64,000 nucleotides of DNA from Dehalococcoidia bacterium (GTDB taxonomy: Bacteria; Chloroflexota; Dehalococcoidia; UBA6926), in contig CBDEUZ010000007.1 in NCBI GenBank assembly GCA_965243495.1, forward strand, positions 154,450-218,449, in the 5' to 3' direction. The position numbers and the translations under genes were made by a program. The notes under the pieces are model-generated. The model saw only the letters and a program-made list of their open reading frames with translations. It ran no database searches and was not told the origin of the DNA. Positions 12,909 through 50,347 of the stretch are shown one piece after another (the first letter of the stretch is position 1; every line of letters starts with the position of its first letter).

Positions 12909-15900
12909 ATGGCGAGAACCCCCCGTTCTGGCTTGATTATTCTTTTGATTGCCGCGGCAATCATTCTTATCGTCTTCGCTTGCGAAAGACCAAGCCCCAC
13001 CCCTACCCCGCCGCCTCCCTCCCCTACACCGACGCCCGAGCCGACACCCGAACCAACCGCCATAGAGCGCCTTGCCTGGTTCGATGCCCGACCTGACACC
13101 GCCCATTGGATCGCGTGGAACGCTCTCCGTCGGATGGCCATCGATGACGAACCGCTCACCCAGCAGATCGCCTCTCTCGACTGGGTGGTTGACGGCATAA
13201 CTGCTGAAGAAGCCGGTGCCCTCGATGATGTGTCGTGGCTCCTTCGGGAGAATCCTGCCATCGCCGACACAGCCCTGAACTTGCCGTGGATGGCGACGGA
13301 CAGCGTCATAAGCGCGGAAGACCGGCGCGCCCTCCGTGCAATTCGCGCCGCAGCGTCCACCGACGAGGACCTTGGCGCAACCCTCGCCGGGTATGAGTGG
13401 CTGACGAACGGACTCACGCAGGATGAGGCAGAGGCGCTGGAAACCATTGGAGAAATCGTCACTCCCGGCTTCACCACCCAAACCGCAACTGGCATCGGCG
13501 CAATCCGGTTAGACCGCTCCGGTACCGCAACACCGCCGTCGGTCTCCCCACGAACGCTTCAGTTCGCCACGTCTGTCTCTCAATTTCCCTGGATGCAAGA
13601 CGACGTCACCTCGCTTGAGACCGTGTTCATTGCCAACCTCAATGGACTAGTTGAAACGGCTGGCAGCATGCACGCAGGTGCAGCGGACACCATCGTGTCC
13701 TATGACTGGATACAGGACGGGATAGAGCTGAATGAGTCGCGTTCACCGCTTCTCTACGAACCGCTCTTCAGGGCGGCAGGTGTGGAAGATACCGACATCC
13801 TGCCGATCATGCTCGAATATGAGTGGATTGCGGATGGACTGGGTTCTAACGAATCACGCGCTATCAGCGGGCTCACACCCCTCCTCAACGCCAGTTCTTC
13901 GGATGACGTAGACGTTATGCGAACCATGGTGAGCTACCCATGGCTCACGGATTCAATCGAAGGCCCTGAATATACTTTGCTAGATGAATTCGCTTACCTC
14001 CTGCGCTTGGAAGAGTCTGCAGGCGCGACATATCGCCAGACCGTACTCGGCTATGACTGGCTCCTAGACGACGTCACCCCAACGGAAATCGCATTCATTC
14101 ATGAACTAACCGAACTCACCCGGACGGCCGATGATTTCCACGCAGAGTCTCTTGACATCGTCGCGTCATACGACTGGGCAGTAGACGGCATTGACGAGCC
14201 AGAGGTTGCTTTCTTGCGGCGCCTCACCCTCCTGTTTGAACACGCAGGAACCGAAGACGCAGTAGCCCTGCAAACCGTGCTTGGATACGAGTGGATCACG
14301 GATGGCGTGATTGTGTCCGAGTTAGACTTTGTGAGGAAAATTGCCTACCTCTTTAACGCAAGTTCTCAGGAAGATGCTCAGGCAATAACCATTATCTCTG
14401 AGTACCCGTGGCTGGCAGATTCTGTGGAGGGCTTTTATGAGAGGGACGCGTTGCGAGCGTTCGATGCTCTGTTGCGACCACAGGGAAGCCAGTACGTAGT
14501 CCCCCAGGAAACGATTCTCGCTTTCGATTGGGTATCCGACGGCATGAGCGTCTATGGGGACGTCTATGAGCATATTGCTCTGGCTGATCTTGTGGAAACG
14601 ATACTTCTCCTTGCCTCGGAACGACCGGAACTCATGGTTTCTTTTGTGGAATCCGAATGGCTCTTGGACAGTCTCTCATTTGAGGAACGTGATGGCCTAT
14701 CCAGAGTCAGAGACATAGTTCCTGACATAAAACTGTTGAACCGATTGGTAGACGCCCTTCCTTACACTGTCAACGATGAGCTGACGAACATATCGGTTGG
14801 AGACGAATGGTTGCAGGGTCAATTCTCCGACTCATTCCTTGAGGAACTTCACTCGACCCAACAGATACTGGCGCAACGCATTTCTCTTATCGATCGAGTC
14901 AGCAACGCCTTGGATGTCGCCCCCGAATTTGCTTGGTTGCAAGACGGACTTTCGCCTATGGAAATGGAATGGCTGCTGGCTTTCAATGAATTGTTTGATG
15001 TAATCGGCCAACCGGAAGCTCTTAACTTCGCTTCCCTGCCATGGTTTCAGGACAACATTGATGCCTTTGACATGAGTGTTATGAACCTCTTGATGTGGAG
15101 AAAACTTATCTTGAGGCCGGAAATTGCCGACTTGAATCTGTCTGCTGATGGTATCTCTGAAAATGATGGTTTCTACTTGATGGCTCTCGGCGATGCCCTG
15201 AACCGTTCCGAGCACCAATATCAGGATCTCCTCAACCAACATCACATCGCCAGCCGAACGCTCACCATGCCCTTGGCGGGAGACATTGACGTTACAGTGG
15301 TTCGTCACACACCTTTTCCAAACAACGACCCTACCCTTGATCTGACAGAGGACATCGCACTCCAGCTAGAAGAGTTCATGGGAGTACCCTTCCCTTTGGA
15401 CAACATCCTGATACTCATACTGGAAGCCAGTGTCCGCAACGGAGAGAGACCGATGATCGGCGTCGCCTATGCCATCTGGGGTCATCTCGTCATGGTTCCC
15501 CCTCGCCATAATCCCGGCTTCCACCTTGCCGTCTTCCATGAGGTTAGTCACTTGTACTGGGGCGGCCACACCGGAGCTCCACCCTGGTGGACGGAGGGGG
15601 CCGCAGGCTTTCTGCCGGACATCGCGCGAGACGCCCTGGGGCATGAAACCCTGGAAGAGCGACGCAAGCAATTGCTCTGGGACACGAGCCGTGAATGTTG
15701 GAATCAGGGCATCAGAACTGTTTCCACTTACTACCATTTACAGAGAACTCAACCCCACGTTGCGCAAGATCGCGGCATCTGCATATACGCCTTGGGAGAG
15801 ATTTTCCTGGTGGAGATGTACCTCCTGCTCGGCCATGACGCCACCTCCACCGCCATGCGACAGCTCTACGTCGATGCCCGTGATTCCGGGTGGCTTGACC

Positions 15901-16031
15901 CCATCACCGATCAGAAAATCTATGATGCCTTTCGGGCCAACACCCCGGATGACAAGGTGGAAGAGTTCCGCAAACTGTTCCTCCGCCTCCACGGCGGCGC
16001 CAACGTCAACCTCTCCGAATCAACCACCTAG
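12909..16031 (+). CDS. Large lipoprotein: signal peptide/lipobox, PT-rich linker, about 16 tandem ~40-aa repeats, C-terminal M1-like (gluzincin) zinc-metallopeptidase domain
   Basis: N-terminus MARTPRSGLIILLIAAAIILIVFAC has lipobox VFAC, followed by PSPTPTPPPPSPTPTPEPTPEPT. The repeat motif x-Y-[DEP]-W-[ILV]-x-D-[GSD]-[ILV]-x3-E recurs about 16 times between aa 95-710. The C-terminus has AVFHEVSHLYWGGHTGAPPWWTEGAAGF, i.e. HExxH(x)nWWxEG as in M1 aminopeptidases. GC is visibly lower than flanking DNA over about 13.9-15.4 kb. Confidence 0.7.
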   Translation: MARTPRSGLIILLIAAAIILIVFACERPSPTPTPPPPSPTPTPEPTPEPTAIERLAWFDARPDTAHWIAWNALRRMAIDDEPLTQQIASLDWVVDGITAEEAGALDDVSWLLRENPAIADTALNLPWMATDSVISAEDRRALRAIRAAASTDEDLGATLAGYEWLTNGLTQDEAEALETIGEIVTPGFTTQTATGIGAIRLDRSGTATPPSVSPRTLQFATSVSQFPWMQDDVTSLETVFIANLNGLVETAGSMHAGAADTIVSYDWIQDGIELNESRSPLLYEPLFRAAGVEDTDILPIMLEYEWIADGLGSNESRAISGLTPLLNASSSDDVDVMRTMVSYPWLTDSIEGPEYTLLDEFAYLLRLEESAGATYRQTVLGYDWLLDDVTPTEIAFIHELTELTRTADDFHAESLDIVASYDWAVDGIDEPEVAFLRRLTLLFEHAGTEDAVALQTVLGYEWITDGVIVSELDFVRKIAYLFNASSQEDAQAITIISEYPWLADSVEGFYERDALRAFDALLRPQGSQYVVPQETILAFDWVSDGMSVYGDVYEHIALADLVETILLLASERPELMVSFVESEWLLDSLSFEERDGLSRVRDIVPDIKLLNRLVDALPYTVNDELTNISVGDEWLQGQFSDSFLEELHSTQQILAQRISLIDRVSNALDVAPEFAWLQDGLSPMEMEWLLAFNELFDVIGQPEALNFASLPWFQDNIDAFDMSVMNLLMWRKLILRPEIADLNLSADGISENDGFYLMALGDALNRSEHQYQDLLNQHHIASRTLTMPLAGDIDVTVVRHTPFPNNDPTLDLTEDIALQLEEFMGVPFPLDNILILILEASVRNGERPMIGVAYAIWGHLVMVPPRHNPGFHLAVFHEVSHLYWGGHTGAPPWWTEGAAGFLPDIARDALGHETLEERRKQLLWDTSRECWNQGIRTVSTYYHLQRTQPHVAQDRGICIYALGEIFLVEMYLLLGHDATSTAMRQLYVDARDSGWLDPITDQKIYDAFRANTPDDKVEEFRKLFLRLHGGANVNLSESTT

Positions 16032-32099: not shown

Positions 32100-33371
32100 A
32101 TGAAAAAGACGGTCAGCGATATCGACGTGTCCGGCGCGCGATGCCTCGTGCGCGTCGATTTCAACGTTCCGTTCGAACCCGGCACAACCACAATCTCCGA
32201 CGACTCCCGCATCCGCGCCGCCCTACCAACCATCAACTACCTTCGTGAGCGGGGCGCGCGCGTCATCCTCGCAACCCATGTGGGCAGACCAAAGGGCATC
32301 GACGACGGCTTGCGCGTAGCGCCCATGGCCGCACGGCTCTCCGAACTCCTCTCATCGCCCGTCACTGTCGCGCCCGACTCCATCGGCGAGGAAACCGAAA
32401 AGCTCGCCGCCGCGCTCGGCCCCGGTGATGTCCTCTTCCTTGAAAACACGAGGTTCCACCCCGAAGAGGAGAAGAACGCTCCTGATCACTCAGCCGCCCT
32501 CGCCCGTCTTGCGGACTTCTATGTGAACGATGCCTTTGGGTCCGCCCACCGCGCCCACGCCTCCACGGAGGGCGTCGCCCATCTCCTGCCCGCCGTCGCG
32601 GGGTTCCTCCTTGATAAGGAGATCCGCATGTTGGGCGGCATCCTTGAATCGCCCCGCCGTCCGCTGGCAACGCTCATGGGCGGCGCAAAGGTCGGCGACA
32701 AGATGGCCGTCATGGAGCGACTCATCGAGAGCTCGGACATGCTCATCGTCGGCGGTGGCATGGCCGCCGCGTTCCTGGAAGCCCGTGGAATGCGAACCGG
32801 TAAGAGCCTGCTCGAAGCGGACGGCCCGCAGATGGCAGGGCGAATCGAAAGCGCCGCAAGGGCCCGAGGCATCCAACTGCTGATTCCGACGGACGTGATC
32901 GTGGCAACCGAACTCTCCGCCGATGCCCCCGTGTCCGCCGTAAGCAGCGACGCCATCCCTGCAGATGGAATGCTCCTGGACATCGGCCCCGAGACGCGCG
33001 ATACCTACACGCGCGCCTTGCGACTCTGCCAGACAGTACTTTGGAACGGCCCGATGGGTGTATTCGAGTACGACCAATTCGCCGGAGGCACACGCGCTAT
33101 CGCCGAATGCCTCGCCCAACACGCCGGCGCTCCCACCTCCCTTCGTCATTCCCGCGAAAGCGGGAATCCAGTGCGGCGCGCAGCGCCGCCACCTTCTCAC
33201 GCCCCACACGGCGCAACCGTCGTCGTTGGCGGCGGCTCGACGGCTGAGGCCGTCGACGCCCTCGGATATGCCGACGCCATGACCCATGTGTCCACCGGCG
33301 GCGGCGCGGCCCTCGAATTCCTTGAAGGCCGTGTCCTCCCCGGCATCGCCGCCCTCCAGGACATGGACTGA
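32100..33371 (+). CDS. pgk: phosphoglycerate kinase carrying an in-frame repeat-element insertion
   Basis: Full-length PGK (..VRVDFNVP.., ..VWNGPMGVFE.., ..GGGSTAEAV..STGGGAALEFLEG..). Between ..ECLAQHAGA and TVVVGGG, 27 extra residues (PTSLRHSRESGNPVRRAAPPPSHAPHG) are encoded by an exact copy of repeat module A at 33143-33189. Confidence 0.9.
   Translation: MKKTVSDIDVSGARCLVRVDFNVPFEPGTTTISDDSRIRAALPTINYLRERGARVILATHVGRPKGIDDGLRVAPMAARLSELLSSPVTVAPDSIGEETEKLAAALGPGDVLFLENTRFHPEEEKNAPDHSAALARLADFYVNDAFGSAHRAHASTEGVAHLLPAVAGFLLDKEIRMLGGILESPRRPLATLMGGAKVGDKMAVMERLIESSDMLIVGGGMAAAFLEARGMRTGKSLLEADGPQMAGRIESAARARGIQLLIPTDVIVATELSADAPVSAVSSDAIPADGMLLDIGPETRDTYTRALRLCQTVLWNGPMGVFEYDQFAGGTRAIAECLAQHAGAPTSLRHSRESGNPVRRAAPPPSHAPHGATVVVGGGSTAEAVDALGYADAMTHVSTGGGAALEFLEGRVLPGIAALQDMD
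33143..33189 (+). repeat. Module A copy inside the pgk coding frame
   Basis: cgtcattcccgcgaaagcgggaatccagtgcggcgcgcagcgccgcc is identical to the intergenic copy at 32035-32080. Total inserted length keeps the frame open. Confidence 0.9.
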
Positions 33372-34140
33372 ACTTTTCTCTGCCATTCCAAGCGCAACTA
33401 AAGGGTCCCCGTTCGGGAGCCCCCTCGTCATTCCCGCGAAAGCGGGAATCCAGTGCGGCGCGTAGCGCCGCCATTAATCCCCTCTCCCTGAGGGGGAGGG
33501 TTAGGGTGGGGGTGACTCCCCCGTCATTCCGAGCGCAGCCGAGGAATCCAAAGACTCCACAGACCGCCAAAACCGGAACGCGGCACACCAAACCCAACGA
33601 CGACCCTCCCCGGCATCGCCGCCCTCCAGGACGCGGACTAGTCCCCGTTCGCCCTGAGCCTGTCGAAGGGGGCTCCCGAACGGGGAACCAACATCCCCTC
33701 CCCCTCGTCATTCCCGCGAAAGCGGGAATCCAGTGCGGCGCGCTGCGCCGCCATTAATCCCCTCTCCCTCAGGGAGAGGGTTAGGGTGAGGGGGGCTGTA
33801 ATTCCGAGCGCCCTTACTGTCATTCCGAGCGCAGTCGAGGAATCCAAAGCCTCAATAGACCGCCAGAGCAGGAACGCGCATCCGAACCCAACGGCCGCCC
33901 GCACCGGAACGTGAACTTTGGCCGTAGCGCAGCTACCGAGAGCCGTAACGCAGTTACCCCGTTCGCCCTGAGCTTGTCGAAGGGGGCTCCCGAACGGGGA
34001 CCTAGCTCCCCTTCGTCATTCCGGCGCAGGCCGGAATCCACCCCGTGGCCCGTAGGGCCACAACACTCTCCTGCAAACCTTTGTGCTATTCTCAAATTCG
34101 GTGTACAGCGGCATCAAGAGTACAAAGGAATAATTTGAGG
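33372..34140. repeat. Mosaic repeat array (A, D, C, E, B, A, D, C, E, F, B, A-variant)
   Basis: Two successive composite blocks A-D-C-E at about 33420-33600 and 33705-33900, then F+B at 33911-34005 and an A-variant (cgtcattccggcgcaggccggaatcc) at 34015-34045. The D copies contain (G3N3)3G3 tracts. Confidence 0.85.
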
Positions 34141-35196
34141 ATGGAAACCTTTGACGAAGTAATACGGGCAGCGCTGGAGGCAGCCCGGCAGCGTGAAGGC
34201 TATATCGGCCCGCTTGAGGACTTTACGATTGCCCTTGCTAGCAGAGACTGGCAGGAGAGAGACCCCGTTATTGAAGGAATACTCACCGACATCAGGGCTG
34301 GCTCACAAGAACCTCTGACACTATGGCATGCACAGCATCATGGTGTTGAGGACACGATTCTCCAGAAGTGGAACGAACCCCTGCGACTTCTTGATCTCCT
34401 GATTGTCCTTGCTGGGCAATTCGGCACAGATTTCTACAGGGAACGCATAGCAACAGTGGAAGACGGTGGTGAGCGTTTACTGCTCACGGTGCTCACTGAG
34501 CTACACGCCAGAGCTTGCCAAATATCCTCCGCTATACATCTGCTGCTGCGTTCAGGATATGCGGATGACGCTCACGCGCGATGGCGCACACTGCACGAGA
34601 TTTCAGTAATAGCCAATTTTGTGAAGGACGGCGGGGCATCACTTGCTGAAAGATACCAAGAGCATGGAACCATACAGCGGTGCAAGGAATTACGTGCATT
34701 CCGTGAACGTAGTCAGTTATTCGGGAACGAGCCGGAATGGACTGTTGCTGACCATTGGTTCGAGGAACGCTATGAATTGCTTATACAAAAGTATGGCTCG
34801 TCCTTCAAGGAGGACTACGGCTGGGCTGCGGATGCACTCGGCAAGAAGAAGCCAACTTTCAGAGACATTGAGAATAACGTGAAGATAGCCGATACAGTGC
34901 CTATGGCGCTGATGCGCGCGCAATACAGGATGGCAAGCGCAAATGTTCATGCATCCGCACACGGCACTCAATTTCGGTTAGGACTGGGTAAGCATAGTAG
35001 CACTGGAATCCTGTTTGGCCCTAGTATTCAAGGTCTAGGTGACCCAGGGTTTGCGACTGCAAATGCTCTTTGTGAAACGGCACTTACGCTTCTTCAGACA
35101 AGATCGAATGAAGACGATGTCGTGCGCATCTCGATACTGACGAATCTCACCGAGACAACTTCGAACGTATTCCTCACAACGCCGGACGATGATTAG
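34141..35196 (+). CDS. Hypothetical protein (351 aa), lower-GC, first gene of the two-gene island
   Basis: RBS GAGG before ATG 34141. No recognisable catalytic family from sequence. It contains an R-x4-H stretch (RWRTLHE), weakly reminiscent of HEPN-type motifs. GC is about 52% against about 65% in flanking DNA. Confidence 0.55.
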   Translation: METFDEVIRAALEAARQREGYIGPLEDFTIALASRDWQERDPVIEGILTDIRAGSQEPLTLWHAQHHGVEDTILQKWNEPLRLLDLLIVLAGQFGTDFYRERIATVEDGGERLLLTVLTELHARACQISSAIHLLLRSGYADDAHARWRTLHEISVIANFVKDGGASLAERYQEHGTIQRCKELRAFRERSQLFGNEPEWTVADHWFEERYELLIQKYGSSFKEDYGWAADALGKKKPTFRDIENNVKIADTVPMALMRAQYRMASANVHASAHGTQFRLGLGKHSSTGILFGPSIQGLGDPGFATANALCETALTLLQTRSNEDDVVRISILTNLTETTSNVFLTTPDDD

Positions 35197-35240
35197 GCTG
35201 GTAACCGTCCTGAACTTGTCCATGAAAGAGGCAGCACCCT

Positions 35241-36884
35241 ATGACGACCGACTGGAAAAACAAACTCTACTTCGGCGATAACCTCCCCATCATGCGGGAG
35301 CACATCCCGGACGAGTCCGTCGATCTCATCTACCTCGATCCGCCCTTCAACTCCAACGCCACCTACAACGTCCTCTTCCGCGAGCACGATTCCTCGGAGT
35401 CCGCCGCCCAGATTCAGGCATTCGACGATACCTGGCACTGGAGCACGGACGCCGAATGGCATTACCAGCAGGTCGTCACCACCGGCCCGCGAAAACTCGC
35501 GGACATGCTTGGGGCCATGCGCACATTCCTCGGCCAGAACGACATGATGGCCTACCTCACCATGATGGCCCCGCGCATGGTGGAACTGCACCGCGTCCTC
35601 AAGCCCACCGGCAGCATCTACCTCCATTGCGACCCCACCGCCAGCCACTACCTCAAGCTCCTCATGGACGCCGTGTTCGGGCCGACAAGGTTCAGGAACG
35701 AAATCACGTGGAAACGCTCTCATCCCAAGGGATTAGCATTCACTCGCTTCGCATCAAACCATGACGTGATTTTGGTGTACGGCTCCACCAGCGATGCCAC
35801 CTGGAATGCAATGTATACGGAGAACCCTCGCGCCCACGAGCAATACAACCTCATTGAAGAAGGCACAGGACGTAGATACCAGTTGACCAGTCTATTGAAT
35901 CCAAATCCAGATCGCCCAAACCTGACATACGAATTCAAGGGCGTAACGAGAGTATGGCGATGGACAAAAGAACGCATGGAACAAGCTGATAAAGACGGGC
36001 TAATCGTTGTTCCGCGTGAGGGACAAGGGGTTCCGAGACTGAAGAGGTATCTTGATAAACAGGAAGGGATTCCAGTAGGCGACACTTGGGATGACATCCC
36101 AATTGCGGCTGGCAAAGAGCGCCTCGGCTATCCCACCCAGAAGCCCGAGGCCCTGCTTGAACGCATCATCTCCGCCTCCAGCAACGAGGGCGATGTCATC
36201 CTCGACCCCTTCTGCGGCTGCGGCACCGCCGTCGCCGTCGCGGAACGCCTGAACCGCAAGTGGATCGGCATCGACGTCACCCATCTCGCCATCTCCCTCA
36301 TGCGCAGCCGCCTGCGTGACTCGTTCGGCGATGACCTGTCCGACTATGAGGTCGTCGGCTCCCCCGCGGACGCGGAGAGCGCCCGCGCACTGTCGCTTGA
36401 GGGCGGCAACACCGGCCGATACCAGTTCGAATACTGGGCGCTCGGCCTGGTTGAGGCCCGCCCTGCCCGCGACATGAAGAGGGGCGCGGACGCCGGTATC
36501 GACGGCTACATCAACTTCTTTGACGACAACTCCGGCAAAGCCAAGTCCGTCATCGTCCAGGTCAAGAGCGGTAACGTGGGCCGCAACGTCATCGCCACCC
36601 TGAAGGGCGACATGGAACGCGAAAACGCCGAAATGTCTCTGCTGATCACCTTGCGTCCGCCCACCAAACCGATGCTTGATGAGGCTGCGTCCGCCGGATT
36701 CTACACGCCGGAGGCCTACCCGGACCGACAATTTCCCCGCGTCCAGATCGCCACCATTGAGGACATCCTCAACGGCAACGGCCCCGCGATACCCCAACTC
36801 GGCCTCTCCCAACCCCCGACCTTCCGCCGCGCCCCCCGCCGCCGCCGAACAGACTCCACATCCCCCCGCATGAACATCGGCTAG
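35241..36884 (+). CDS. Beta-class N6-adenine/N4-cytosine DNA methyltransferase fused to a C-terminal Mrr-like (PD-(D/E)xK) nuclease-type domain
   Basis: Motif IV LIYLDPPFNS near the N-terminus, motif I/X ..GYPTQKPEALLERII..VILDPFCGCGTAV.. after a central target-recognition region (beta-class order). The C-terminal approximately 190 aa carry ..DAGIDGYINFF..SVIVQVKSGNVGRNVIATLKG..LLITL.., matching the Mrr catalytic-domain pattern. The central TRD segment (about 35700-36110) is about 48% GC while both flanks are about 65%. Confidence 0.8.
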   Translation: MTTDWKNKLYFGDNLPIMREHIPDESVDLIYLDPPFNSNATYNVLFREHDSSESAAQIQAFDDTWHWSTDAEWHYQQVVTTGPRKLADMLGAMRTFLGQNDMMAYLTMMAPRMVELHRVLKPTGSIYLHCDPTASHYLKLLMDAVFGPTRFRNEITWKRSHPKGLAFTRFASNHDVILVYGSTSDATWNAMYTENPRAHEQYNLIEEGTGRRYQLTSLLNPNPDRPNLTYEFKGVTRVWRWTKERMEQADKDGLIVVPREGQGVPRLKRYLDKQEGIPVGDTWDDIPIAAGKERLGYPTQKPEALLERIISASSNEGDVILDPFCGCGTAVAVAERLNRKWIGIDVTHLAISLMRSRLRDSFGDDLSDYEVVGSPADAESARALSLEGGNTGRYQFEYWALGLVEARPARDMKRGADAGIDGYINFFDDNSGKAKSVIVQVKSGNVGRNVIATLKGDMERENAEMSLLITLRPPTKPMLDEAASAGFYTPEAYPDRQFPRVQIATIEDILNGNGPAIPQLGLSQPPTFRRAPRRRRTDSTSPRMNIG

Positions 36885-37277
36885 CCCTGCCCACCCTGAG
36901 CCTGTCGAAAGGCCTTCCACTTCCCGTTCGCCCTGAGCCTGTCGAAGGGGGCTCCCGAACGGGTACCTAGCCCCCTCGTCATTCCCGCGAAAGCGGGAAT
37001 CCAGTGCGGCGCGCAGCGCCGCCTCTCATGTCATTCCGAGCACAGCCGAGGAATCTAAAGACTCCACAGACCGCCAAAGCCGGAACGCGACACACCAGCC
37101 TCACGCACAAATCGACGCTGATCGCGAGCTATGGTTGTAGGCACTGCCTACCCGCCCAAAGCCGGAACGCGGCACACCAAACCCACGAACCGTTCTCGCC
37201 GGAACGTGAACTTTGGCCGTAGCGCAGCTACCCGAGAGCCGTAACGCAGTTACCCCCGCTATACTGTCCACACGCAT
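36885..37277. repeat. Mosaic repeat array (B-partial, B, A, C, E, E, F)
   Basis: B fragments at 36895-36965, A at 36975-37020, C at 37025-37065, E at 37065-37200, F (gaactttggccgtagcgcagctacccgagagccgtaacgcagttacccc) at 37198-37255. The F copy is a direct repeat of 33905-33961 on the other side of the island. Confidence 0.85.
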
Positions 37278-38495
37278 ATGGCCGACTTTGAACTGATCAA
37301 GAGCCTCGCCCGCAAGACGGACACAAAGGTCGTCCTGCTTGTCATGGACGGCTTGGGTGGCATTCCACACCCAAAGACACTGCGCACCGAACTGGAGGTT
37401 GCCGAGAAGGATAATCTCGATCGCCTCGCGCGCTCCTCACAGACCGGCCTGTCCATCCCCGTCGCGCACGGCATCACGCCCGGCAGTGGACCTGGCCACC
37501 TTGCCCTCTTCGGGTATGACCCCATCAAGTACCTCATCGGCCGTGGCATCCTTGAAGCTCTTGGGTTGGACATGGATGTCCGCGACGGAGACGTTGCCGC
37601 CCGAGGAAACTTCTGCACCATCGGCGAAGACGGCACCATTACCGACCGCCGCGCCGGGCGCATCGCAACCGATCTCAACCGTGAGCTGACCGAGCAGCTG
37701 AATGCCATCTCCGTCGAAAATGCGCAGCCCATCATCGCCTCGGGCCGCGAGCATCGCTTTGCCCTGCTTTTTCGACCGGAGGACGGAGGCCCCCAGCTCA
37801 GCGATGCCCTGACGGACAGTGACCCCCAAAGAGAAGGTTTGGCTCCCTTAGCGGTCACCCCAACTGAGCCATGGGCGGATAACACCGCCAACATTGTGAA
37901 TTCCTTCCTTAGGGCTGCAATGTCCGTTATTGCCGACGCCCACCCCGCAAACGGCCTTGTTCTACGCGGTTTTGCGACAATACCGGACCTCCCGCAAATG
38001 TCGGACGTTTACGCCCTGAATCCTGCCGCAATCGCCGCCTATCCAATGTACCGGGGCCTCGCGCAGCTGGTGGGCATGAACGTCGTGCCAACCGGCGAAA
38101 CATTCGAAGACGAAATCCAAACCGCCCGAGACATCTGGGACGATCACGACTTCTTTTTCATCCACTACAAGTACACGGACAGCACCGGCGAGGACGGCGA
38201 CTACGATGCTAAGGTAGCCGCCATCGAGCAGCTGGATCGCGCCCTGCCCGCCCTGCTGGACCTGGATCCTGATGTGTTGATCGTGGCGGGGGATCATTCA
38301 ACTCCCAGCGCCATGGCCGCCCACAGCTGGCACCCGGTTCCCGTGATGATTCGGTCGCGGCACATTGCTGCCGGCTTTTCGGAGGCGTTCACGGAACGGG
38401 AATGCGCGAAGGGAATGCTGGGAACCATGGCGGCAACAGACATCATGCCGATAGCCCTCGCAAATGCCGGGAAACTGGACAAATTCGGCGCTTAG
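37278..38495 (+). CDS. apgM: 2,3-bisphosphoglycerate-independent phosphoglycerate mutase, archaeal type
   Basis: 405 aa with ..VVLLVMDGLGG.. N-terminus and ..LIVAGDHSTPS.. metal-binding region characteristic of ApgM-type iPGM. Confidence 0.85.
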   Translation: MADFELIKSLARKTDTKVVLLVMDGLGGIPHPKTLRTELEVAEKDNLDRLARSSQTGLSIPVAHGITPGSGPGHLALFGYDPIKYLIGRGILEALGLDMDVRDGDVAARGNFCTIGEDGTITDRRAGRIATDLNRELTEQLNAISVENAQPIIASGREHRFALLFRPEDGGPQLSDALTDSDPQREGLAPLAVTPTEPWADNTANIVNSFLRAAMSVIADAHPANGLVLRGFATIPDLPQMSDVYALNPAAIAAYPMYRGLAQLVGMNVVPTGETFEDEIQTARDIWDDHDFFFIHYKYTDSTGEDGDYDAKVAAIEQLDRALPALLDLDPDVLIVAGDHSTPSAMAAHSWHPVPVMIRSRHIAAGFSEAFTERECAKGMLGTMAATDIMPIALANAGKLDKFGA

Positions 38496-46342: not shown

Positions 46343-47634
46343 CACGCGGCGAGTCTCACAGTATCGGCAGCGCCTCTCTGTGGGCGGGTCATGAGAAGAA
46401 CCATGATTACGGCTAGAGCAAGCGGAATCACGACGGTCATAAACGCTATGCGGTAATCGTAAACATCCGCGAGCCAGCCGACCAGCACGGGTGAGATCAA
46501 ACCGCCCACCGCCCCTGCCCCAACCTGCAAACCCATCAGCGAGCCGAATATGCCACGGCCCCAATAGTCGCCTTGTAATGACAGCCGCGCCGCGTTGCTG
46601 CCTCCCCACCCCGTGCCATAGATGATCTCAAAGATGATTGCCACCCAGATGTTGGCGATGAAGATGAACAGAATGCCCCCTGCAAGCTGGAAGCTCAGCA
46701 TCGTTGCGACCACTAACTTCTTGTTGAACCTGTCCGCGAGCGCGCCGGAGAAGAAACGCATCGGGATGCTGGCGACGGTGAACACAACGACCATCGCACC
46801 GGCTGTTTCCATGGAGAAGCCGTAGCTGACAAGCGCAGGGATGTGGTGGACGACCATCGCAGTGATGGCCACCTGCTGCATGGAGAGAGCGCCGACATAG
46901 AGCAAGTATGACCGACTCAGCAGGATGGAGCGCACCGCTCCGGGCGACGGTTCAGGCTCAGCCGCCTCTCCGGCCTGACCTGATTCCGAGTCGGCTGTTT
47001 CCGGTGGATCACCATCCATACGCAAGCCGTAGTGCTCCGGCCGTCTCCTCAGAACCATCGCAAGCGGGATGCACGTTATCCATGTGCCAATTCCCGTGAA
47101 CAGGGCGGCGTCGCGCCAGCCATACTCGCGTATCAGCACGACCAGCAGCGCCGTCATGATGCCCCCAAAGCCCGGCCCGATGAAGGTCAGGCCCAGCGCC
47201 TTGCCGCGATTGCGCAGGAACCAGTTGCTGATTGCCGTCGCCACCATGACGTAGGATGTTGCGCCCATGCCGCTGCCGATGAGAACGAACGCGACATAGT
47301 ATTGCCACGCATGCTCAACTTGGCTCAGGACAATGAATCCCGTCCCGCCGCTGAACATCGCTACGGCCGTGACAAAGCGAGGCCCTAACCGGTCCGTAAG
47401 GGCGCCAATCGTTGGACTCAAAATCGCCGTGAACACTGCCATCATCGCGGGTCCGCGTGAGACCTGCTCACGCGTCCAGTTGAGATCGAGGCGGATGCTG
47501 TCAAAGAACGCGCTGAACCCAAAGAAACTGACGCCCGTCGTATAGAACATCAGGTACATGCCGGACAGCGCCATCCACCACCCATAGAAAAGGCGTGGAC
47601 GACGCCGGCGCGGGGTTGAGACACCGGCACTCAT
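46342..47634 (-). CDS. MFS transporter (OFA-like)
   Basis: ..RLFYGWWMALSGMYLMFYTTGVSFFGFSAFF.. 12 TM. Confidence 0.8.
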   Translation of the reverse strand: MSAGVSTPRRRRPRLFYGWWMALSGMYLMFYTTGVSFFGFSAFFDSIRLDLNWTREQVSRGPAMMAVFTAILSPTIGALTDRLGPRFVTAVAMFSGGTGFIVLSQVEHAWQYYVAFVLIGSGMGATSYVMVATAISNWFLRNRGKALGLTFIGPGFGGIMTALLVVLIREYGWRDAALFTGIGTWITCIPLAMVLRRRPEHYGLRMDGDPPETADSESGQAGEAAEPEPSPGAVRSILLSRSYLLYVGALSMQQVAITAMVVHHIPALVSYGFSMETAGAMVVVFTVASIPMRFFSGALADRFNKKLVVATMLSFQLAGGILFIFIANIWVAIIFEIIYGTGWGGSNAARLSLQGDYWGRGIFGSLMGLQVGAGAVGGLISPVLVGWLADVYDYRIAFMTVVIPLALAVIMVLLMTRPQRGAADTVRLAA

Positions 47635-49043
47635 GCCGCCACCTGCGGCTCGTTCTCAGCCGACGGGGTTCTGTCCCGAGGCTTCTTCATTAGCAGGACA
47701 AGGAGGAGGGCGATGGAGAGAAGGGCAACGACGACATAAGGGATAACTTCACTTTGTGTCTCCGGTGTGACAAATGACAGTAATTCTCTGAAAAGCACAA
47801 ACACACCAAGTGAAGTAGCGGCCAGTATACCCAGAGCCAGACCGAAACGTTCGATACCCCAATATTCGACTTGCAGCACAATAATTGGAACACAGAGGAT
47901 TCCAGCGCCAGTGCCGATCACTACAGCAAGTGCCAAAGTACTCCAATCCCCGATGCCTATGTATATTGCAGTCACACATATCAGTTGCGTAACCATCGCG
48001 CCCATCACAACTCGTCGAGCGCCATATAAATCCACCAAAACACCAGTTACGACTACTGCAAGAACACCCACCAACACCACTTCGGGTTGAGGCTCTTGAA
48101 ATAGCCAAAGTCCTTCCGCCAACCGCGCCGGAAAGTAGTGTGGGGAGAAACTATAGAGACCTGCTCCAATGAGGACACGAGGAAGCAACAGAATCGCGCT
48201 TGTCTGACAGGCGCTAGCCAAGAGTAGGAGCAGGTGGGGATGATTAAGTAAAACTGAACGCAATGGTAATGACGATTCAGGAGTTATCTGAACAGTTGGC
48301 TTCTGTTCTTTCGCTACCTCAGGATCATCTGAGACAAACTGCCCTTTGCTATGAGCGAATACATCATTGGCGAGGAGGCGTCTTAGCAGCAAATAGGCAA
48401 GTATGATGCCCGGAACGAACAAAAAAGCAATATCGATGAGCGAAAGGGGCTGGAATCCGGGTACATCAGGCCGGACAACCCGAGCGAGATCGGAAGGCAG
48501 AATCCAGTACAGAAAACGATGAATACGTGGCAAAGGAAGTATCGTCGCAAGAATGACGGCGGCCAACAACGCTGAAAGAGCCCTTCCACGATTCGAAATG
48601 AACAGCGCTGTGGTCGCCTTGGCAAATCCAATCAGCAGTGCCCCTGCCAGAGCGCCATCAATTACTAGCCAGGCGAGGTACAGTACCCAGTTATCCTCGA
48701 TCAATTCAGCAGCTACAAATATGACTGCCGCTCCGCTCATGATTGGAATGACCGCAGAGACCAGTCTCATACGATCCGCCGCATACCCGGCAATGGCAGC
48801 CACAATGATTGCGAGCGAGAGAAACAGGTAGATGTCGAACGCTGATGGAAACGCGTCGGACCCCGCTCTTGTGCTGGCTCTATCCATTTCAAAGATAAGG
48901 TCCGTATGTGTCTGTGCCCTGATCGCCACAGCCAACAAGAAGAAACCAACCAGCACCACCCACCAGCCGCGATAGAGGCGGCGGCTGGTCAGCCACTCAG
49001 GAAGCAGGGGCTCGGTTCGATAATCCCTATCCTGCTCGTTCAT
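47631..49043 (-). CDS. MFS-like polytopic membrane protein (divergent fifth member of the array)
   Basis: ..RRLYRGWWVVLVGFF.. resembles the FYGWW N-terminal motif of the neighbours, with many TM helices. The ATG at 49043 was chosen; the longest ORF reaches 49187. Confidence 0.55.
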   Translation of the reverse strand: MNEQDRDYRTEPLLPEWLTSRRLYRGWWVVLVGFFLLAVAIRAQTHTDLIFEMDRASTRAGSDAFPSAFDIYLFLSLAIIVAAIAGYAADRMRLVSAVIPIMSGAAVIFVAAELIEDNWVLYLAWLVIDGALAGALLIGFAKATTALFISNRGRALSALLAAVILATILPLPRIHRFLYWILPSDLARVVRPDVPGFQPLSLIDIAFLFVPGIILAYLLLRRLLANDVFAHSKGQFVSDDPEVAKEQKPTVQITPESSLPLRSVLLNHPHLLLLLASACQTSAILLLPRVLIGAGLYSFSPHYFPARLAEGLWLFQEPQPEVVLVGVLAVVVTGVLVDLYGARRVVMGAMVTQLICVTAIYIGIGDWSTLALAVVIGTGAGILCVPIIVLQVEYWGIERFGLALGILAATSLGVFVLFRELLSFVTPETQSEVIPYVVVALLSIALLLVLLMKKPRDRTPSAENEPQVAA

Positions 49044-49165
49044 GCCCCATGCTAGGCGCGGGCGTATCCCAAACACAAACATAAGGTGGCAGTCAGAAGG
49101 ATTGCTACAATAGGTTTCAGCGCGCAGTTCACTCGTCAAACCAGATACAGAGGAGACCCAGCCAA

Positions 49166-50347
49166 ATGCCCCTACCTGAGCAGGCACGTCGCGTCGCGCA
49201 GCTACCCCCGTACCTCTTTGTGGAGGTCACACGCAAGATCAACGAGAAGCGCGCCCGCGGCGAGGACGTCATCTCGCTCGCCATCGGCGACCCTGACCTG
49301 CCCTCCGCCCCGCACGTCATCAGCGCGCTCGTCACATCACTGGAGGATGTAGCCAACCACCGCTACCCGGAATCCGACGGCCTGCCGGCCTTCAGGCGCT
49401 CAGTCGCCGACTGGTACAAGAAGCGGTTTGGTGTGGAGTTTGATCCCGATACAGAAGTCCTGCCCACCATCGGCTCGAAGGAAGGCATCGCCCACATCGC
49501 ATGGTGTTACATCGACCAGGGAGACATCGCGCTGGTGCCGGACCCCGGCTACCCCGTCTACAGTGTCGGCACCATGCTGGCTGGGGGCGAGTCGTACTAC
49601 ATGCCGCTCCACCGGGAGACAGGCTTCCTGCCAGACCTTGATGCCATCCCTGAGGACGTGGCCCGGAAAGCCAAGCTCCTATGGATCAACTACCCCAACA
49701 ACCCGACGGCTGCGGTGGCCGAGCTGGATTTCTATGAGCGGGTCGTCGAGTTCGCCAAGAAGTACGATATCGTCGTCTGTCACGACGGCCCCTACACAGA
49801 GGTCGCTTTTGACGGATACAAACCCGTGAGCTTCATGCAGGTGGACGGGGCAAAGGATGTGGGCATTGAGTTCCACTCACTGTCCAAGTCGTACAACATG
49901 ACAGGCTGGCGAATCGGCATGACCGTCGGCAACGCGGAGGTCACCAACGCGCTGATGCGTATCAAGTCCAACGTGGACTCCGGCGTGTTCCAGGCCGTGC
50001 AGTTGGCAGGGATCGCTGCGATTGAGGGACCGCAGGACATCATCGACCACCACAACGCCGTCTACCAGGCAAGGCGAGACAAGCTTATCCCTGCCCTGCG
50101 CAAGATGGGCCTCGAGGTCGATCCTCCCAAGGCGAGCCTCTACGTCTGGGCTAAACTGCCGGATGGTGTCTTATCCGGCGACTTCGCGTCACGCCTCATC
50201 GAAGAGGCGAACGTCGTTGTGACGCCCGGCCGCGGCTACGGCGAGGCGGGCGAGGGATATATCCGCTGCTCACTGACCGTCAGTGACGACGCCCTTGATC
50301 GCGCGCTGGAGCGGCTAAGCAACGTCAACATCTCTGATCTTGTCTAG
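49166..50347 (+). CDS. Class I/II PLP aminotransferase, LL-diaminopimelate aminotransferase-like
   Basis: ..[34 protein letters not shown].. pattern typical of DapL-type enzymes. PLP Lys region ..[14 protein letters not shown].. dapF lies 7 kb upstream. Confidence 0.75.

What the first reader, a model, noticed from the sequence alone, without database searches (positions are those of the whole stretch)
35700..36110. Mosaic GC composition inside the methyltransferase gene: the target-recognition segment is about 48% GC, the catalytic flanks about 65%
Within one ORF, the central region between motif VIII and motif X/I (encoding ..KRSHPKGLAFTRF...TYEFKGVTRVWRWTKERMEQADKDGLIVVP...DTWDDI..) is markedly AT-richer than the N- and C-terminal catalytic parts. 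This is the position of the specificity (TRD) domain in beta-class enzymes, so the pattern suggests recent replacement of the specificity domain by recombination with foreign DNA. That would be specificity switching of an RM-like enzyme.
Basis: seen in the sequence. Interest (0 to 1): 0.55.

Follow-up and report, generated by a model that had tools for sequence, protein, structure and literature searches.

The report
Swapped specificity cassette in a methyltransferase
A DNA methyltransferase gene has a DNA-recognition segment with a different ancestry and base composition from the rest of the gene, a known way for such enzymes to change targets, and the AT-rich dip occurs in nearly the whole gene family, so it is not evidence of a recent foreign import.

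Summary
Inside ORF 35241-36884, a beta-class DNA methyltransferase fused to a C-terminal Mrr-like nuclease domain, codons 158-292 (nt 35712-36116) have GC 0.50 and GC3 0.50. The rest of the gene has GC3 0.86 and host genes about 0.69-0.78. GC1 and GC2 stay flat.

The segment is the central target-recognition domain (TRD), and it has a separate ancestry. Twenty homologues with 92-98% identical flanks carry 12 TRD types, only 33-48% identical to this one. This TRD type (84-90% identical) also sits on backbones whose flanks are 61-79% identical. Three related genomes hold the gene between pgk and apgM, each with a different TRD. So recombinational cassette exchange at the conserved motif VIII and motif X borders is well supported.

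"Recent" and "foreign" are not supported. The nearest TRDs differ at about 50% of four-fold sites. All TRD relatives lie in the same protein architecture. The GC3 trough is family-wide (TRD below flanks in 140 of 153 genes).

This is a new instance, in an uncharacterised stand-alone family, of the TRD shuffling known from Type III mod alleles. A change of specificity is inferred, not shown.

The parts
35241..36884 (+). Whole gene: 547-aa beta-class DNA methyltransferase fused to a C-terminal Mrr-like PD-(D/E)xK domain. An AAGAGG Shine-Dalgarno sequence lies 8-9 nt before the ATG.
   Evidence: ORF. Pfam N6_N4_Mtase 145 bits (aa 27-347) and Mrr_cat 35 bits (aa 394-483). Upstream sequence.
35241..35711 (+). 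N-terminal catalytic half of the backbone, including motif IV DPPF at 35337-35348 and FRNEITW at 35691-35711. GC 0.605, GC3 about 0.88.
   Evidence: It is 93-95% nt identical to L001, L083, L084 and L085.
35682..35720 (+). 5' crossover zone. Up to about 35716 the sequence resembles the close-backbone set (notably L085); from about 35717 it resembles the set that shares its TRD (L002, L086).
   Evidence: DNA alignment; sliding identity.
35712..36116 (+). Target-recognition domain cassette, codons 158-292. GC 0.499, GC3 0.50.
   Evidence: Change-point scan. Identity is 33-48% aa to close-backbone homologues and 84-90% to a set with divergent backbones. AF2 models it as a separate beta-rich domain bounded by low-confidence linkers at 163-166 and 287-300.
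36112..36149 (+). 3' crossover zone inside the conserved ERLGYPTQKPE (motif X) coding block.
   Evidence: DNA alignment; coordinates.
36117..36365 (+). C-terminal catalytic part of the MTase (motif X TQKP, motif I FCGCGT at 36210-36227). GC3 about 0.88.
   Evidence: Matches to CcrM, RsrI and MboIIA over aa 286-374.
36420..36692 (+). Mrr_cat-like nuclease-fold domain. D417/D421 and Q440-x-K442 (36489-36566) are invariant in 120 homologues.
   Evidence: Pfam; invariant columns; weak Foldseek match to MspJI (E about 0.006-0.008).
34141..35196 (+). Upstream neighbour, not part of the mosaic: a DUF5677 gene with GC 0.515 and GC3 0.50. It is absent from the syntenic loci and from all 176 other loci examined at that point.

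Best explanation
The gene encodes a stand-alone DNA methyltransferase related to Type III Mod. It is beta-class, probably N6-adenine, and carries a C-terminal Mrr-type nuclease-fold domain. Its DNA specificity should reside in a central cassette of about 135 residues (the TRD). Within this protein family the cassette and the backbone evolve as separate modules. Homologous recombination in the highly conserved DNA coding for the motifs on either side (FRNEI.W at the 5' border, ERLGYPTQKPE at the 3' border) joins a given backbone to different cassettes. The window's gene is one such recombinant: a backbone nearly identical to those of sister genomes, with a cassette otherwise seen on distant backbones.

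The low GC of the cassette is a standing property of these cassettes, which track host composition only about half as steeply as the backbone does. It is not a timestamp.

Shown here: the compositional block, the discordant ancestry, the breakpoints, the family-wide trough, and the absence of a conserved partner gene. Inferred: that different cassettes give different methylation targets, that recombination rather than another process made the junctions, and that the nuclease domain is active, which would switch restriction and modification together.
For: 1. Composition. The GC3 block at codons 158-292 has LLR 34 against at most 9.5 in shuffles, with GC1 and GC2 flat.

2. Discordant ancestry. 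P0002, P0007-13 and P0015-17 have flanks 92-98% identical but TRDs only 33-48% identical. P0003-6, P0014, P0019 and P0093 have TRDs 84-90% identical but flanks 61-79%. Among 120 sequences, 505 of 674 pairs with at least 90% flank identity have under 50% TRD identity. Flank and TRD distances are nearly uncorrelated (Spearman 0.11).

3. Breakpoints. At the nucleotide level, identity to L001 falls from about 0.95 to 0.4-0.6 between codons about 146 and 290 and then recovers. The switches lie at about 35717 and 36115-36145, inside conserved motif-coding DNA, and coincide with the GC3 change points.

4. Same locus, different TRDs. L001, L084 and L085 all have the order pgk, spacer, MTase, apgM, tpiA, gfo.

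5. The TRD moves as one block. The same set is closest in all four sub-segments.

6. All TRD relatives retrieved by a TRD-only scan sit in the same MTase+Mrr architecture: 70 of 72 complete ORFs.

7. The trough is family-wide. TRD GC3 is below the flanks in 65 of 69 loci and below the host in 67 of 69, and below the flanks in 140 of 153 genes, with regression slope 0.47. It is independent of column conservation.

8. The TRD position is supported by the Pfam insertion and by best structural matches to EcoP15I Mod and H. pylori Mod.

9. Precedent. modA alleles have conserved flanks and a lower-GC DRD (PMC3311624). TRD movement between mod genes is described in PMC3467074.
Against: No donor with a near-identical TRD was found. 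The best is 90% aa and about 81-82% nt identical, with 4-fold divergence about 0.5, so the event cannot be dated or given a direction. This backbone-TRD combination is seen only once, in the window itself. No methylation or cleavage data exist for any member. The backbone has GC3 (0.86) above the host level (about 0.69-0.75) and 2-3 times lower synonymous divergence than its neighbours. The backbone may therefore be the recently spreading part, which the simple statement 'a TRD was replaced' does not capture.
Confidence: 0.8

Rival explanations
1. One reading: a recent replacement of the resident TRD by DNA from a foreign, AT-richer organism, with the low GC reflecting incomplete amelioration.
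For: GC3 of 0.50 lies far below both host and backbone. TRD GC3 follows flank GC3 with slope of only 0.47, as expected if cassettes circulate among hosts of different GC. Nine viral contigs carry family members. The same argument was made for modA12 (PMC3311624).
Against: The nearest known TRDs differ at 47-54% of four-fold sites. The trough exists in 140 of 153 genes, including the TRDs of the sister loci. All TRD relatives lie within the same family, and the closest named carrier is also a Dehalococcoidia MAG (L007). In low-GC hosts the TRD is still not GC-richer than the flanks (0.35 against 0.38).
Confidence: 0.15
2. TRD types are old, long-maintained alleles, and the recently moving part is the backbone. 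On this view the conserved catalytic and nuclease parts are homogenised or spread among lineages and paralogues by gene conversion or HGT. The cassette is too divergent to recombine internally, so it escapes GC-biased conversion and drifts AT-ward.
For: Four-fold divergence of the MTase flanks is 0.13-0.21, against 0.34-0.52 for adjacent pgk, apgM, tpiA and gfo in the same genome pairs. Backbone GC3 (0.84-0.92) exceeds host GC3 (0.65-0.85) in the Dehalococcoidia loci. The gene sits at different chromosomal sites in closely related roughly 1.2-2.0 Mb genomes or large contigs, and two paralogues with 94-98% identical flanks and 44% identical TRDs lie 27 kb apart in one genome.
Against: Across all hosts the flank GC3 is not significantly above host GC3 (+0.02, p = 0.11). 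A high GC3 lowers the saturation level of four-fold divergence, which explains part of the low value (my estimate). This is the same physical mechanism as the best explanation and differs only in direction and timing.
Confidence: 0.4
3. Assembly chimera: a metagenome assembler joined reads from two strains with different TRDs.
For: The source appears to be a metagenome-assembled contig of 1.98 Mb. This backbone-TRD pair is seen only once.
Against: It would require two switches 405 bp apart, both in frame and both exactly at domain borders. The same mosaic design, conserved backbone with varied TRD, recurs in many independent assemblies. Sequence outside the block is continuous with the syntenic neighbourhood.
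Confidence: 0.03
4. There was no recombination. The dip reflects amino-acid composition or weaker codon selection in a less conserved domain.
For: The TRD is the least conserved part of the protein.
Against: GC1 and GC2 are flat. Across the family, well-conserved TRD columns have GC3 0.54 while poorly conserved flank columns have 0.70. The discordant identities cannot arise without exchange.
Confidence: 0.02

Closest known systems
Type III Mod alleles with exchangeable DNA-recognition domains (modA of Neisseria/Haemophilus, PMC3311624; mod genes of H. pylori, PMC3467074)
   Same: Both are beta-class MTases with a central TRD between highly conserved 5' and 3' parts. The same TRD appears on different backbones and many TRDs appear on one backbone. 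Exchange occurs at conserved flanking sequence. The DRD is lower in GC than the flanks. EcoP15I Mod is the best structural match.
   Different: There is no res gene or any other conserved partner and no simple-sequence repeat for phase variation. There is an added C-terminal Mrr-like domain. The hosts are uncultured Dehalococcoidia and many other environmental phyla rather than host-adapted pathogens.
Single-chain Type IIG/IIL restriction-modification enzymes (MmeI family); comparison from my own knowledge
   Same: A nuclease fold, an MTase and a TRD sit in one polypeptide, so a TRD change would alter cleavage and protection together. That tolerance is the accepted reason for rapid specificity diversification in the MmeI family.
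   Different: MmeI-type enzymes have an N-terminal nuclease, a gamma-class MTase and a C-terminal TRD. Here the order is beta-class MTase with an internal TRD, then the nuclease domain. Cleavage activity is unknown.
Solitary beta-class MTases such as CcrM, M.RsrI, M.MboIIA and M.BceJIV
   Same: The catalytic core and motif order are shared, with significant sequence and structure matches.
   Different: Those enzymes have short or fixed recognition modules, and no cassette-type variability is known to me. The NCBIfam CcrM and PRK11524 scores are far below cut-off (96 against 830, and 99 against 292).
Mrr/MspJI-type PD-(D/E)xK nuclease domains of Type IV enzymes
   Same: The Pfam Mrr_cat hit is above its cut-off. 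An invariant D...QxK motif is present. Foldseek gives a weak match to MspJI.
   Different: The domain is fused to an MTase rather than to a modified-base reader. It is hit about equally well by the 'inactive REase' model NA-iREase1. No sequence-level PDB relative was found.

Membership tests
Beta-class N6A/N4C DNA methyltransferase (Pfam N6_N4_Mtase) | Profile match above the curated cut-off | tested here: met
   145.4 bits against a cut-off of 26.7, aa 27-347.
Beta-class N6A/N4C DNA methyltransferase (Pfam N6_N4_Mtase) | Permuted motif order: motif IV (D/S)PP(Y/F), then the TRD, then motif X, then motif I FxGxG | tested here: met
   DPPF at aa 33-36, TRD at aa 158-292, TQKP at aa 299-302, FCGCG at aa 324-328. 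The definition of the motif order is from established knowledge.
Beta-class N6A/N4C DNA methyltransferase (Pfam N6_N4_Mtase) | Fold similar to solved beta-class MTases | tested here: met
   AF2 model with pLDDT 77. Foldseek E = 1e-11 to 1e-18 to EcoP15I Mod, CcrM, RsrI and MboIIA.
Type III restriction-modification system (Mod+Res) | An adjacent res gene (helicase-nuclease) forming an operon with mod | tested here: not met
   The neighbours are DUF5677 and apgM. No gene family is shared by more than 8 of about 86 loci.
Type III restriction-modification system (Mod+Res) | Mod-like MTase with a central variable TRD | tested here: met
   PADLOC MTase_III models match at E = 6e-43, but MTase_II models score higher.
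Phase-variable mod (phasevarion) | A simple-sequence repeat tract in or before the ORF | tested here: not met
   No tandem repeats in 33300-37300.
TRD/DRD cassette exchange ('domain movement') | Near-identical flanks carrying unrelated or weakly related TRDs, and the same TRD on divergent backbones | tested here: met
   There are 12 TRD clusters among 20 proteins with at least 92% flank identity. This TRD type occurs on 6 other flank clusters, besides the window's own.
TRD/DRD cassette exchange ('domain movement') | Breakpoints in conserved DNA bordering the TRD | tested here: met
TRD/DRD cassette exchange ('domain movement') | Different TRDs confer different recognition sequences | not testable with these tools
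   This needs methylome or biochemical data.
Mrr_cat / PD-(D/E)xK nuclease domain | Profile match above the cut-off and a conserved D...(E/Q)xK motif | tested here: met
   Mrr_cat scores 35.4 bits against a cut-off of 21. D417, D421, Q440 and K442 are invariant in 120 homologues.
Mrr_cat / PD-(D/E)xK nuclease domain | Endonuclease activity | not testable with these tools
   The model NA-iREase1 ('inactive') matches about equally well (33.6 bits). The structural match to MspJI is weak.
Type IIG/IIL single-chain RM (MmeI-like) | N-terminal nuclease, gamma-class MTase, C-terminal TRD | tested here: not met
   The domain order here is beta-class MTase with an internal TRD, then a C-terminal nuclease fold.

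The most novel reading that the evidence does not exclude
The family, with thousands of members across Chloroflexota, Acidobacteriota, Desulfobacterota, Proteobacteria and some viral contigs, may be an undescribed class of single-polypeptide restriction-modification enzyme. It would be built from a Type III Mod-like beta MTase and a C-terminal Mrr-type nuclease. Restriction and modification specificity would then be re-programmed together by exchange of a TRD cassette. The backbone would itself be a self-spreading, homogenised module that hops between intergenic sites in small Dehalococcoidia genomes. The persistent GC3 trough would be a general, computable signature of such recombination-cold specificity cassettes.
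Probability: 0.25. Interest if true: 0.65.

Novelty: new member of a known kind. Interest (0 to 1): 0.4.

Why it matters
The locus is a clean natural example of modular re-assortment of DNA-recognition cassettes outside the pathogens where this has been studied. It occurs in uncultured Dehalococcoidia-like bacteria with genomes of about 2 Mb. It comes with an internal control: the same chromosomal site in sister genomes holds other cassettes.

It also gives a caution for genome scanning. A GC trough inside an MTase gene marks the exchangeable cassette but does not date the exchange.

If the fused nuclease domain is active, the family would add a new architecture to the single-chain RM enzymes. 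Its many natural backbone-cassette combinations would be a ready-made resource for mapping TRD sequence to recognition motif.

Tried and rejected
- **Exact look-up of the window's protein:** no encoding contig is on record, and cluster look-ups gave no names or taxonomy. The Dehalococcoidia assignment therefore rests on the nearest named MAGs.
- **TRD-only protein search:** it returned only fragments of 245 aa or less and missed the full-length set that shares this TRD, so it says nothing about donors.
- **TRD-only scan of JGI metagenomes:** the best hit is 70% identical. In viral contigs the best is 60%. No near-identical donor was found.
- **Species-representative genome scan:** the best hit is 67% overall. 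The close relatives exist only in ENA and NCBI metagenome assemblies.
- **Co-transfer of the equally AT-rich upstream DUF5677 gene with the TRD:** rejected. The gene upstream of the MTase in L086, which carries the same TRD type, is unrelated. No DUF5677 homologue occurs in any of the other 176 loci. A 476-bp backbone segment with GC3 of 0.88 lies between the two.
- **Insertion of the module through the REP-like direct repeats that bracket it:** not specific. The same elements fill many intergenic spacers of this lineage.
- **Sub-mosaicism inside the TRD:** not seen.
- **Paralogue in the window as an internal donor:** none.
- **First AF2 model, from 24 sequences:** unusable, pLDDT 51. The second, from 120 sequences, was used.
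- **PDB sequence search with the C-terminal domain alone:** nothing meaningful.
- **Rfam and tandem repeats in 33.0-37.5 kb:** nothing.
- **Literature:** I found no paper on this fusion family or on DUF5677 function.
Full report
**What is at the coordinates**

The finding lies inside one intact ORF, 35241-36884 on the + strand, encoding 547 aa. Pfam identifies an N6_N4_Mtase domain (aa 27-347, 145 bits) followed by an Mrr_cat/NA-iREase1 restriction-endonuclease-fold domain (aa 394-484).

The motif order is that of a beta-class enzyme: DPPF at aa 33-36, FRNEITW at 151-157, TQKP at 299-302 and FCGCG at 324-328. The MTase match spans 321 residues for 212 profile positions, which implies an insertion of about 110 residues between motif VIII and motif X. 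That is the TRD position.

An AlphaFold model built on 120 homologues (pLDDT 77, pTM 0.69) shows residues about 170-285 as a separate beta-rich domain. It is bounded by low-confidence linkers at 163-166 and 287-300. The best structural matches are the Type III Mod subunits EcoP15I (E = 9e-19) and H. pylori Mod, then CcrM, RsrI and MboIIA. The C-terminal domain gives only a weak match to MspJI.

**Check of the observation**

- GC is 0.499 for 35700-36110, 0.608 upstream in the gene and 0.654 downstream. The window averages 0.603, and the segment falls in the lowest 2% of same-size windows.
- The shift is synonymous. GC3 drops from 0.87-0.93 to 0.43-0.67 and returns to 0.83-0.93, while GC1 and GC2 do not change.
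- A likelihood scan for one aberrant block puts it at codons 158-292, nt 35712-36116, with GC3 0.50 against 0.86 and LLR 34.2. The largest LLR in 100 shuffles was 9.5, and seven other genes of the window gave 4-8.
- Host genes in the window have GC3 of about 0.6-0.83, mostly 0.70-0.79. The gene therefore contains two non-host compositions: a backbone above the host level and a cassette far below it.

**Ancestry of the two parts**

A search with the whole protein found thousands of full-length homologues with the same domain set. Per-segment identities split the best hits into two groups.

- P0002, P0007-13 and P0015-17 are 92-99% identical to the window's protein in the N-terminal, C-terminal MTase and nuclease parts, but only 33-48% identical in aa 153-290.
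- P0003-6, P0014 and P0019 are 84-90% identical in aa 153-290, but 73-87% in the MTase flanks and 61-74% in the nuclease domain.

Clustering 120 sequences gives 12 TRD clusters (at least 70% identity) among the 20 proteins that share the window's backbone cluster. The window's protein is the only one of these with its TRD type, and that TRD type occurs on six other backbone clusters. Of 674 pairs with at least 90% flank identity, 505 have under 50% TRD identity. Flank and TRD distances are almost uncorrelated (Spearman 0.11). The same set of sequences is closest in all four quarters of the TRD, so it behaves as one block.

**Breakpoints**

In codon alignments, nt identity to L001 (P0002's gene) is 0.90-0.98 up to codon about 135. 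It is 0.4-0.6 (locally up to 0.77) between codons about 150 and 285, and 0.83-0.97 afterwards. Identity to L002 (P0005's gene) shows the opposite profile.

DNA alignments place the 5' switch at about 35717, just after the FRNEITW codons. The 3' switch lies between 36115 and about 36145, inside the ERLGYPTQKPE codons. Both zones are conserved at the DNA level across both groups. These positions agree, within a few bases at the 5' border and at the start of the 3' switch zone, with the independent GC3 change points.

**Same site, other cassettes**

L001, L084 and L085 come from genomes or contigs of the same lineage. They share the gene order pgk, variable spacer, MTase, apgM, tpiA, GFO/IDH-type oxidoreductase with the window. 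Their TRDs are 48%, 35% and 35% identical to the window's.

In other close relatives the gene sits elsewhere:

- on the other side of pgk, next to a TIR-domain gene (L179);
- beside unrelated housekeeping genes (L083, L180);
- as two paralogues 27 kb apart in one 1.89-Mb genome (L177 and L178), with flanks 94-98% and TRDs 44% identical.

No neighbouring gene family is shared by more than 8 of about 86 loci. The protein therefore works without a dedicated partner such as Res.

**Why 'recent' and 'foreign' are not supported**

*1. Age of the shared TRD.* The TRDs most like the window's (89-90% aa) differ from it at 47-54% of four-fold degenerate sites. Between the window and its syntenic relatives, pgk, apgM, tpiA and gfo differ at 34-52%. 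The shared TRD type is therefore at least about as old as those genomes' divergence. It is kept similar by purifying selection on the protein.

*2. Source of the TRD.* A TRD-only scan of metagenome and viral contigs found nothing closer than 70%. Every complete ORF carrying a TRD relative has the MTase+Mrr architecture, 70 of 72. Exchange is thus within the family. The nearest named carrier of this TRD type is another Dehalococcoidia MAG (L007, 80% TRD identity).

*3. The trough is a family property.* In 69 loci from species-representative genomes with enough flanking genes, TRD GC3 is below flank GC3 in 65 and below neighbouring-gene GC3 in 67 (mean differences -0.19 and -0.17, p about 1e-12). 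Averaged over 79 loci, the trough runs from codon about 136 to about 300. It is equally deep in conserved (0.54) and variable (0.53) TRD columns, whereas poorly conserved flank columns stay at 0.70. In 153 complete genes, TRD is below flank in 140 (p = 6e-25). TRD GC3 rises only 0.47 per unit of flank GC3. The gap is therefore small in AT-rich hosts (0.35 against 0.38) and large in GC-rich ones (0.55 against 0.93). The sister loci with other TRDs show the same dip.

The GC dip marks the exchangeable module. It cannot date the exchange.

**An unexpected point: the backbone**

The catalytic flanks differ between the window and L001, L084, L085 and L083 at only 12-21% of four-fold sites (nuclease domain 20-34%). 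The adjacent housekeeping genes in the syntenic loci L001, L084 and L085 differ at 34-52%. Homology with those loci starts and stops at the gene's ends.

In the Dehalococcoidia loci the backbone GC3 (0.84-0.92) exceeds that of the hosts (0.65-0.85) in all but one (L004, 0.55 against 0.75). Over all phyla the excess is not significant. High GC3 lowers the saturation level of four-fold divergence. Even allowing for that, by my rough estimate the backbone is several-fold less diverged than its surroundings.

Two explanations are possible: the backbone spreads or is homogenised among lineages and paralogues, or its synonymous sites are unusually constrained. This leaves the direction of the event open. 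A new cassette may have entered a resident backbone, or a circulating backbone may have been converted around a resident cassette. Both involve the same recombination at the same borders.

**Mechanism proposed**

A Mod-like beta-class MTase reads DNA through the central cassette. The DPPF motif and the adenine-MTase relatives suggest that it methylates adenine N6. Homologous recombination in the conserved DNA on either side of the cassette re-assorts cassettes and backbones.

The C-terminal domain keeps an invariant D417/D421...Q440-x-K442 signature in 120 homologues. This is compatible with an active Mrr/MspJI-type nuclease (that comparison is from my own knowledge). If it is active, cleavage and protection would change together, which would make cassette exchange harmless to the cell.

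Not shown by any of this work: specificity differences between cassettes, nuclease activity, and the cause of the low cassette GC3. For the last, the candidates are flux among hosts, the general AT-richness of mobile DNA, or escape from GC-biased conversion.

**Comparison with known systems**

The pattern is that of Type III mod alleles. In modA of Neisseria and Haemophilus the 5' and 3' parts are conserved, the central DRD defines the allele, DRDs are exchanged within and between species, and the modA12 DRD has lower GC than its flanks (PMC3311624). TRD movement between non-orthologous mod genes is described for H. pylori (PMC3467074).

The present gene is not a Type III system. It has no res gene, no repeat tract, and an added nuclease-fold domain. 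It is also not MmeI-like in domain order or MTase class. I found no paper on this fusion family.

**Verdict**

The core of the interpretation, a recombinational exchange of the specificity domain, is well supported. The inference from low GC to a recent foreign import is not. The phenomenon is a new member of a known kind, found in an uncharacterised and very widespread protein family. Interest is moderate.

Noticed in passing
window 34141-35196 (+): A DUF5677 gene with GC 0.515 and GC3 0.50 lies 45 bp upstream of the MTase. It is absent from the syntenic loci L001, L084 and L085 and from all 176 other loci fetched at that point. It has no NCBIfam or PADLOC hit. In sister genomes the spacer between pgk and the MTase holds different small genes, and in L179 a TIR-domain gene lies 38 bp upstream of the MTase. 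The site looks like an insertion hotspot or defence islet.
   Followed up: partly
window 33420-34014 and 36885-37256: Composite arrays of at least three REP-like elements (cores GTCATTCCCGCGAAAGCGGGAATCCAG, GTCATTCCGAGCGCAGCCGAGGAATC, CCTGAGCCTGTCGAAGGGG) bracket the DUF5677+MTase module as direct repeats in the same order. Two of the elements have 11 and 10 copies in the window, all on the + strand. They also fill intergenic spacers in related genomes, so the bracketing may be incidental.
   Followed up: partly
window 33130-33198 (inside pgk, 32100-33371): One REP-like copy (33145-33171) lies in frame inside the pgk coding sequence. The window's PGK is 423 aa, against 397 aa in L001, and the nucleotide alignment to L001 is interrupted exactly there. 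L085 also has a longer PGK (461 aa).
   Followed up: no
window 33335-33369 and 33605-33639: The last 35 nt of pgk are duplicated 270 nt downstream (94% identity). The duplicate is part of a composite unit of roughly 280-300 nt repeated in the spacer.
   Followed up: no
window 35241-35711 and 36117-36884; loci L001, L083, L084, L085: The MTase backbone has GC3 of 0.86, above the host's 0.69-0.78. Its four-fold divergence from sister genomes is 2-3 times lower than that of adjacent housekeeping genes. This suggests that the backbone itself spreads or is homogenised among lineages.
   Followed up: partly
L177 and L178 (same 1,893,357-bp contig, about 27 kb apart); L009 and L011 (same chromosome OZ247431.1): Some genomes carry two paralogues with highly similar backbones and different TRDs. 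The flanks are 94-98% identical in L177/L178 and 85-90% in L009/L011; the TRDs are 44% and 52% identical. These could be substrates for intragenomic gene conversion.
   Followed up: partly
window 14241-15101 (inside ORF 12909-16031) and 47621-48361 (inside ORF 47631-49187): Two other low-GC patches occur in the window (minima 0.47 and 0.48). The first lies in a 1040-aa ORF with no Pfam match. The second lies in a 517-aa ORF with a partial MFS_1 match, next to two other MFS genes.
   Followed up: no
L168-L176 (IMG/VR contigs): Nine viral contigs encode full-length members of the same MTase+Mrr family, with TRDs 32-60% identical to the window's. Phages may be one vehicle for the family.
   Followed up: no
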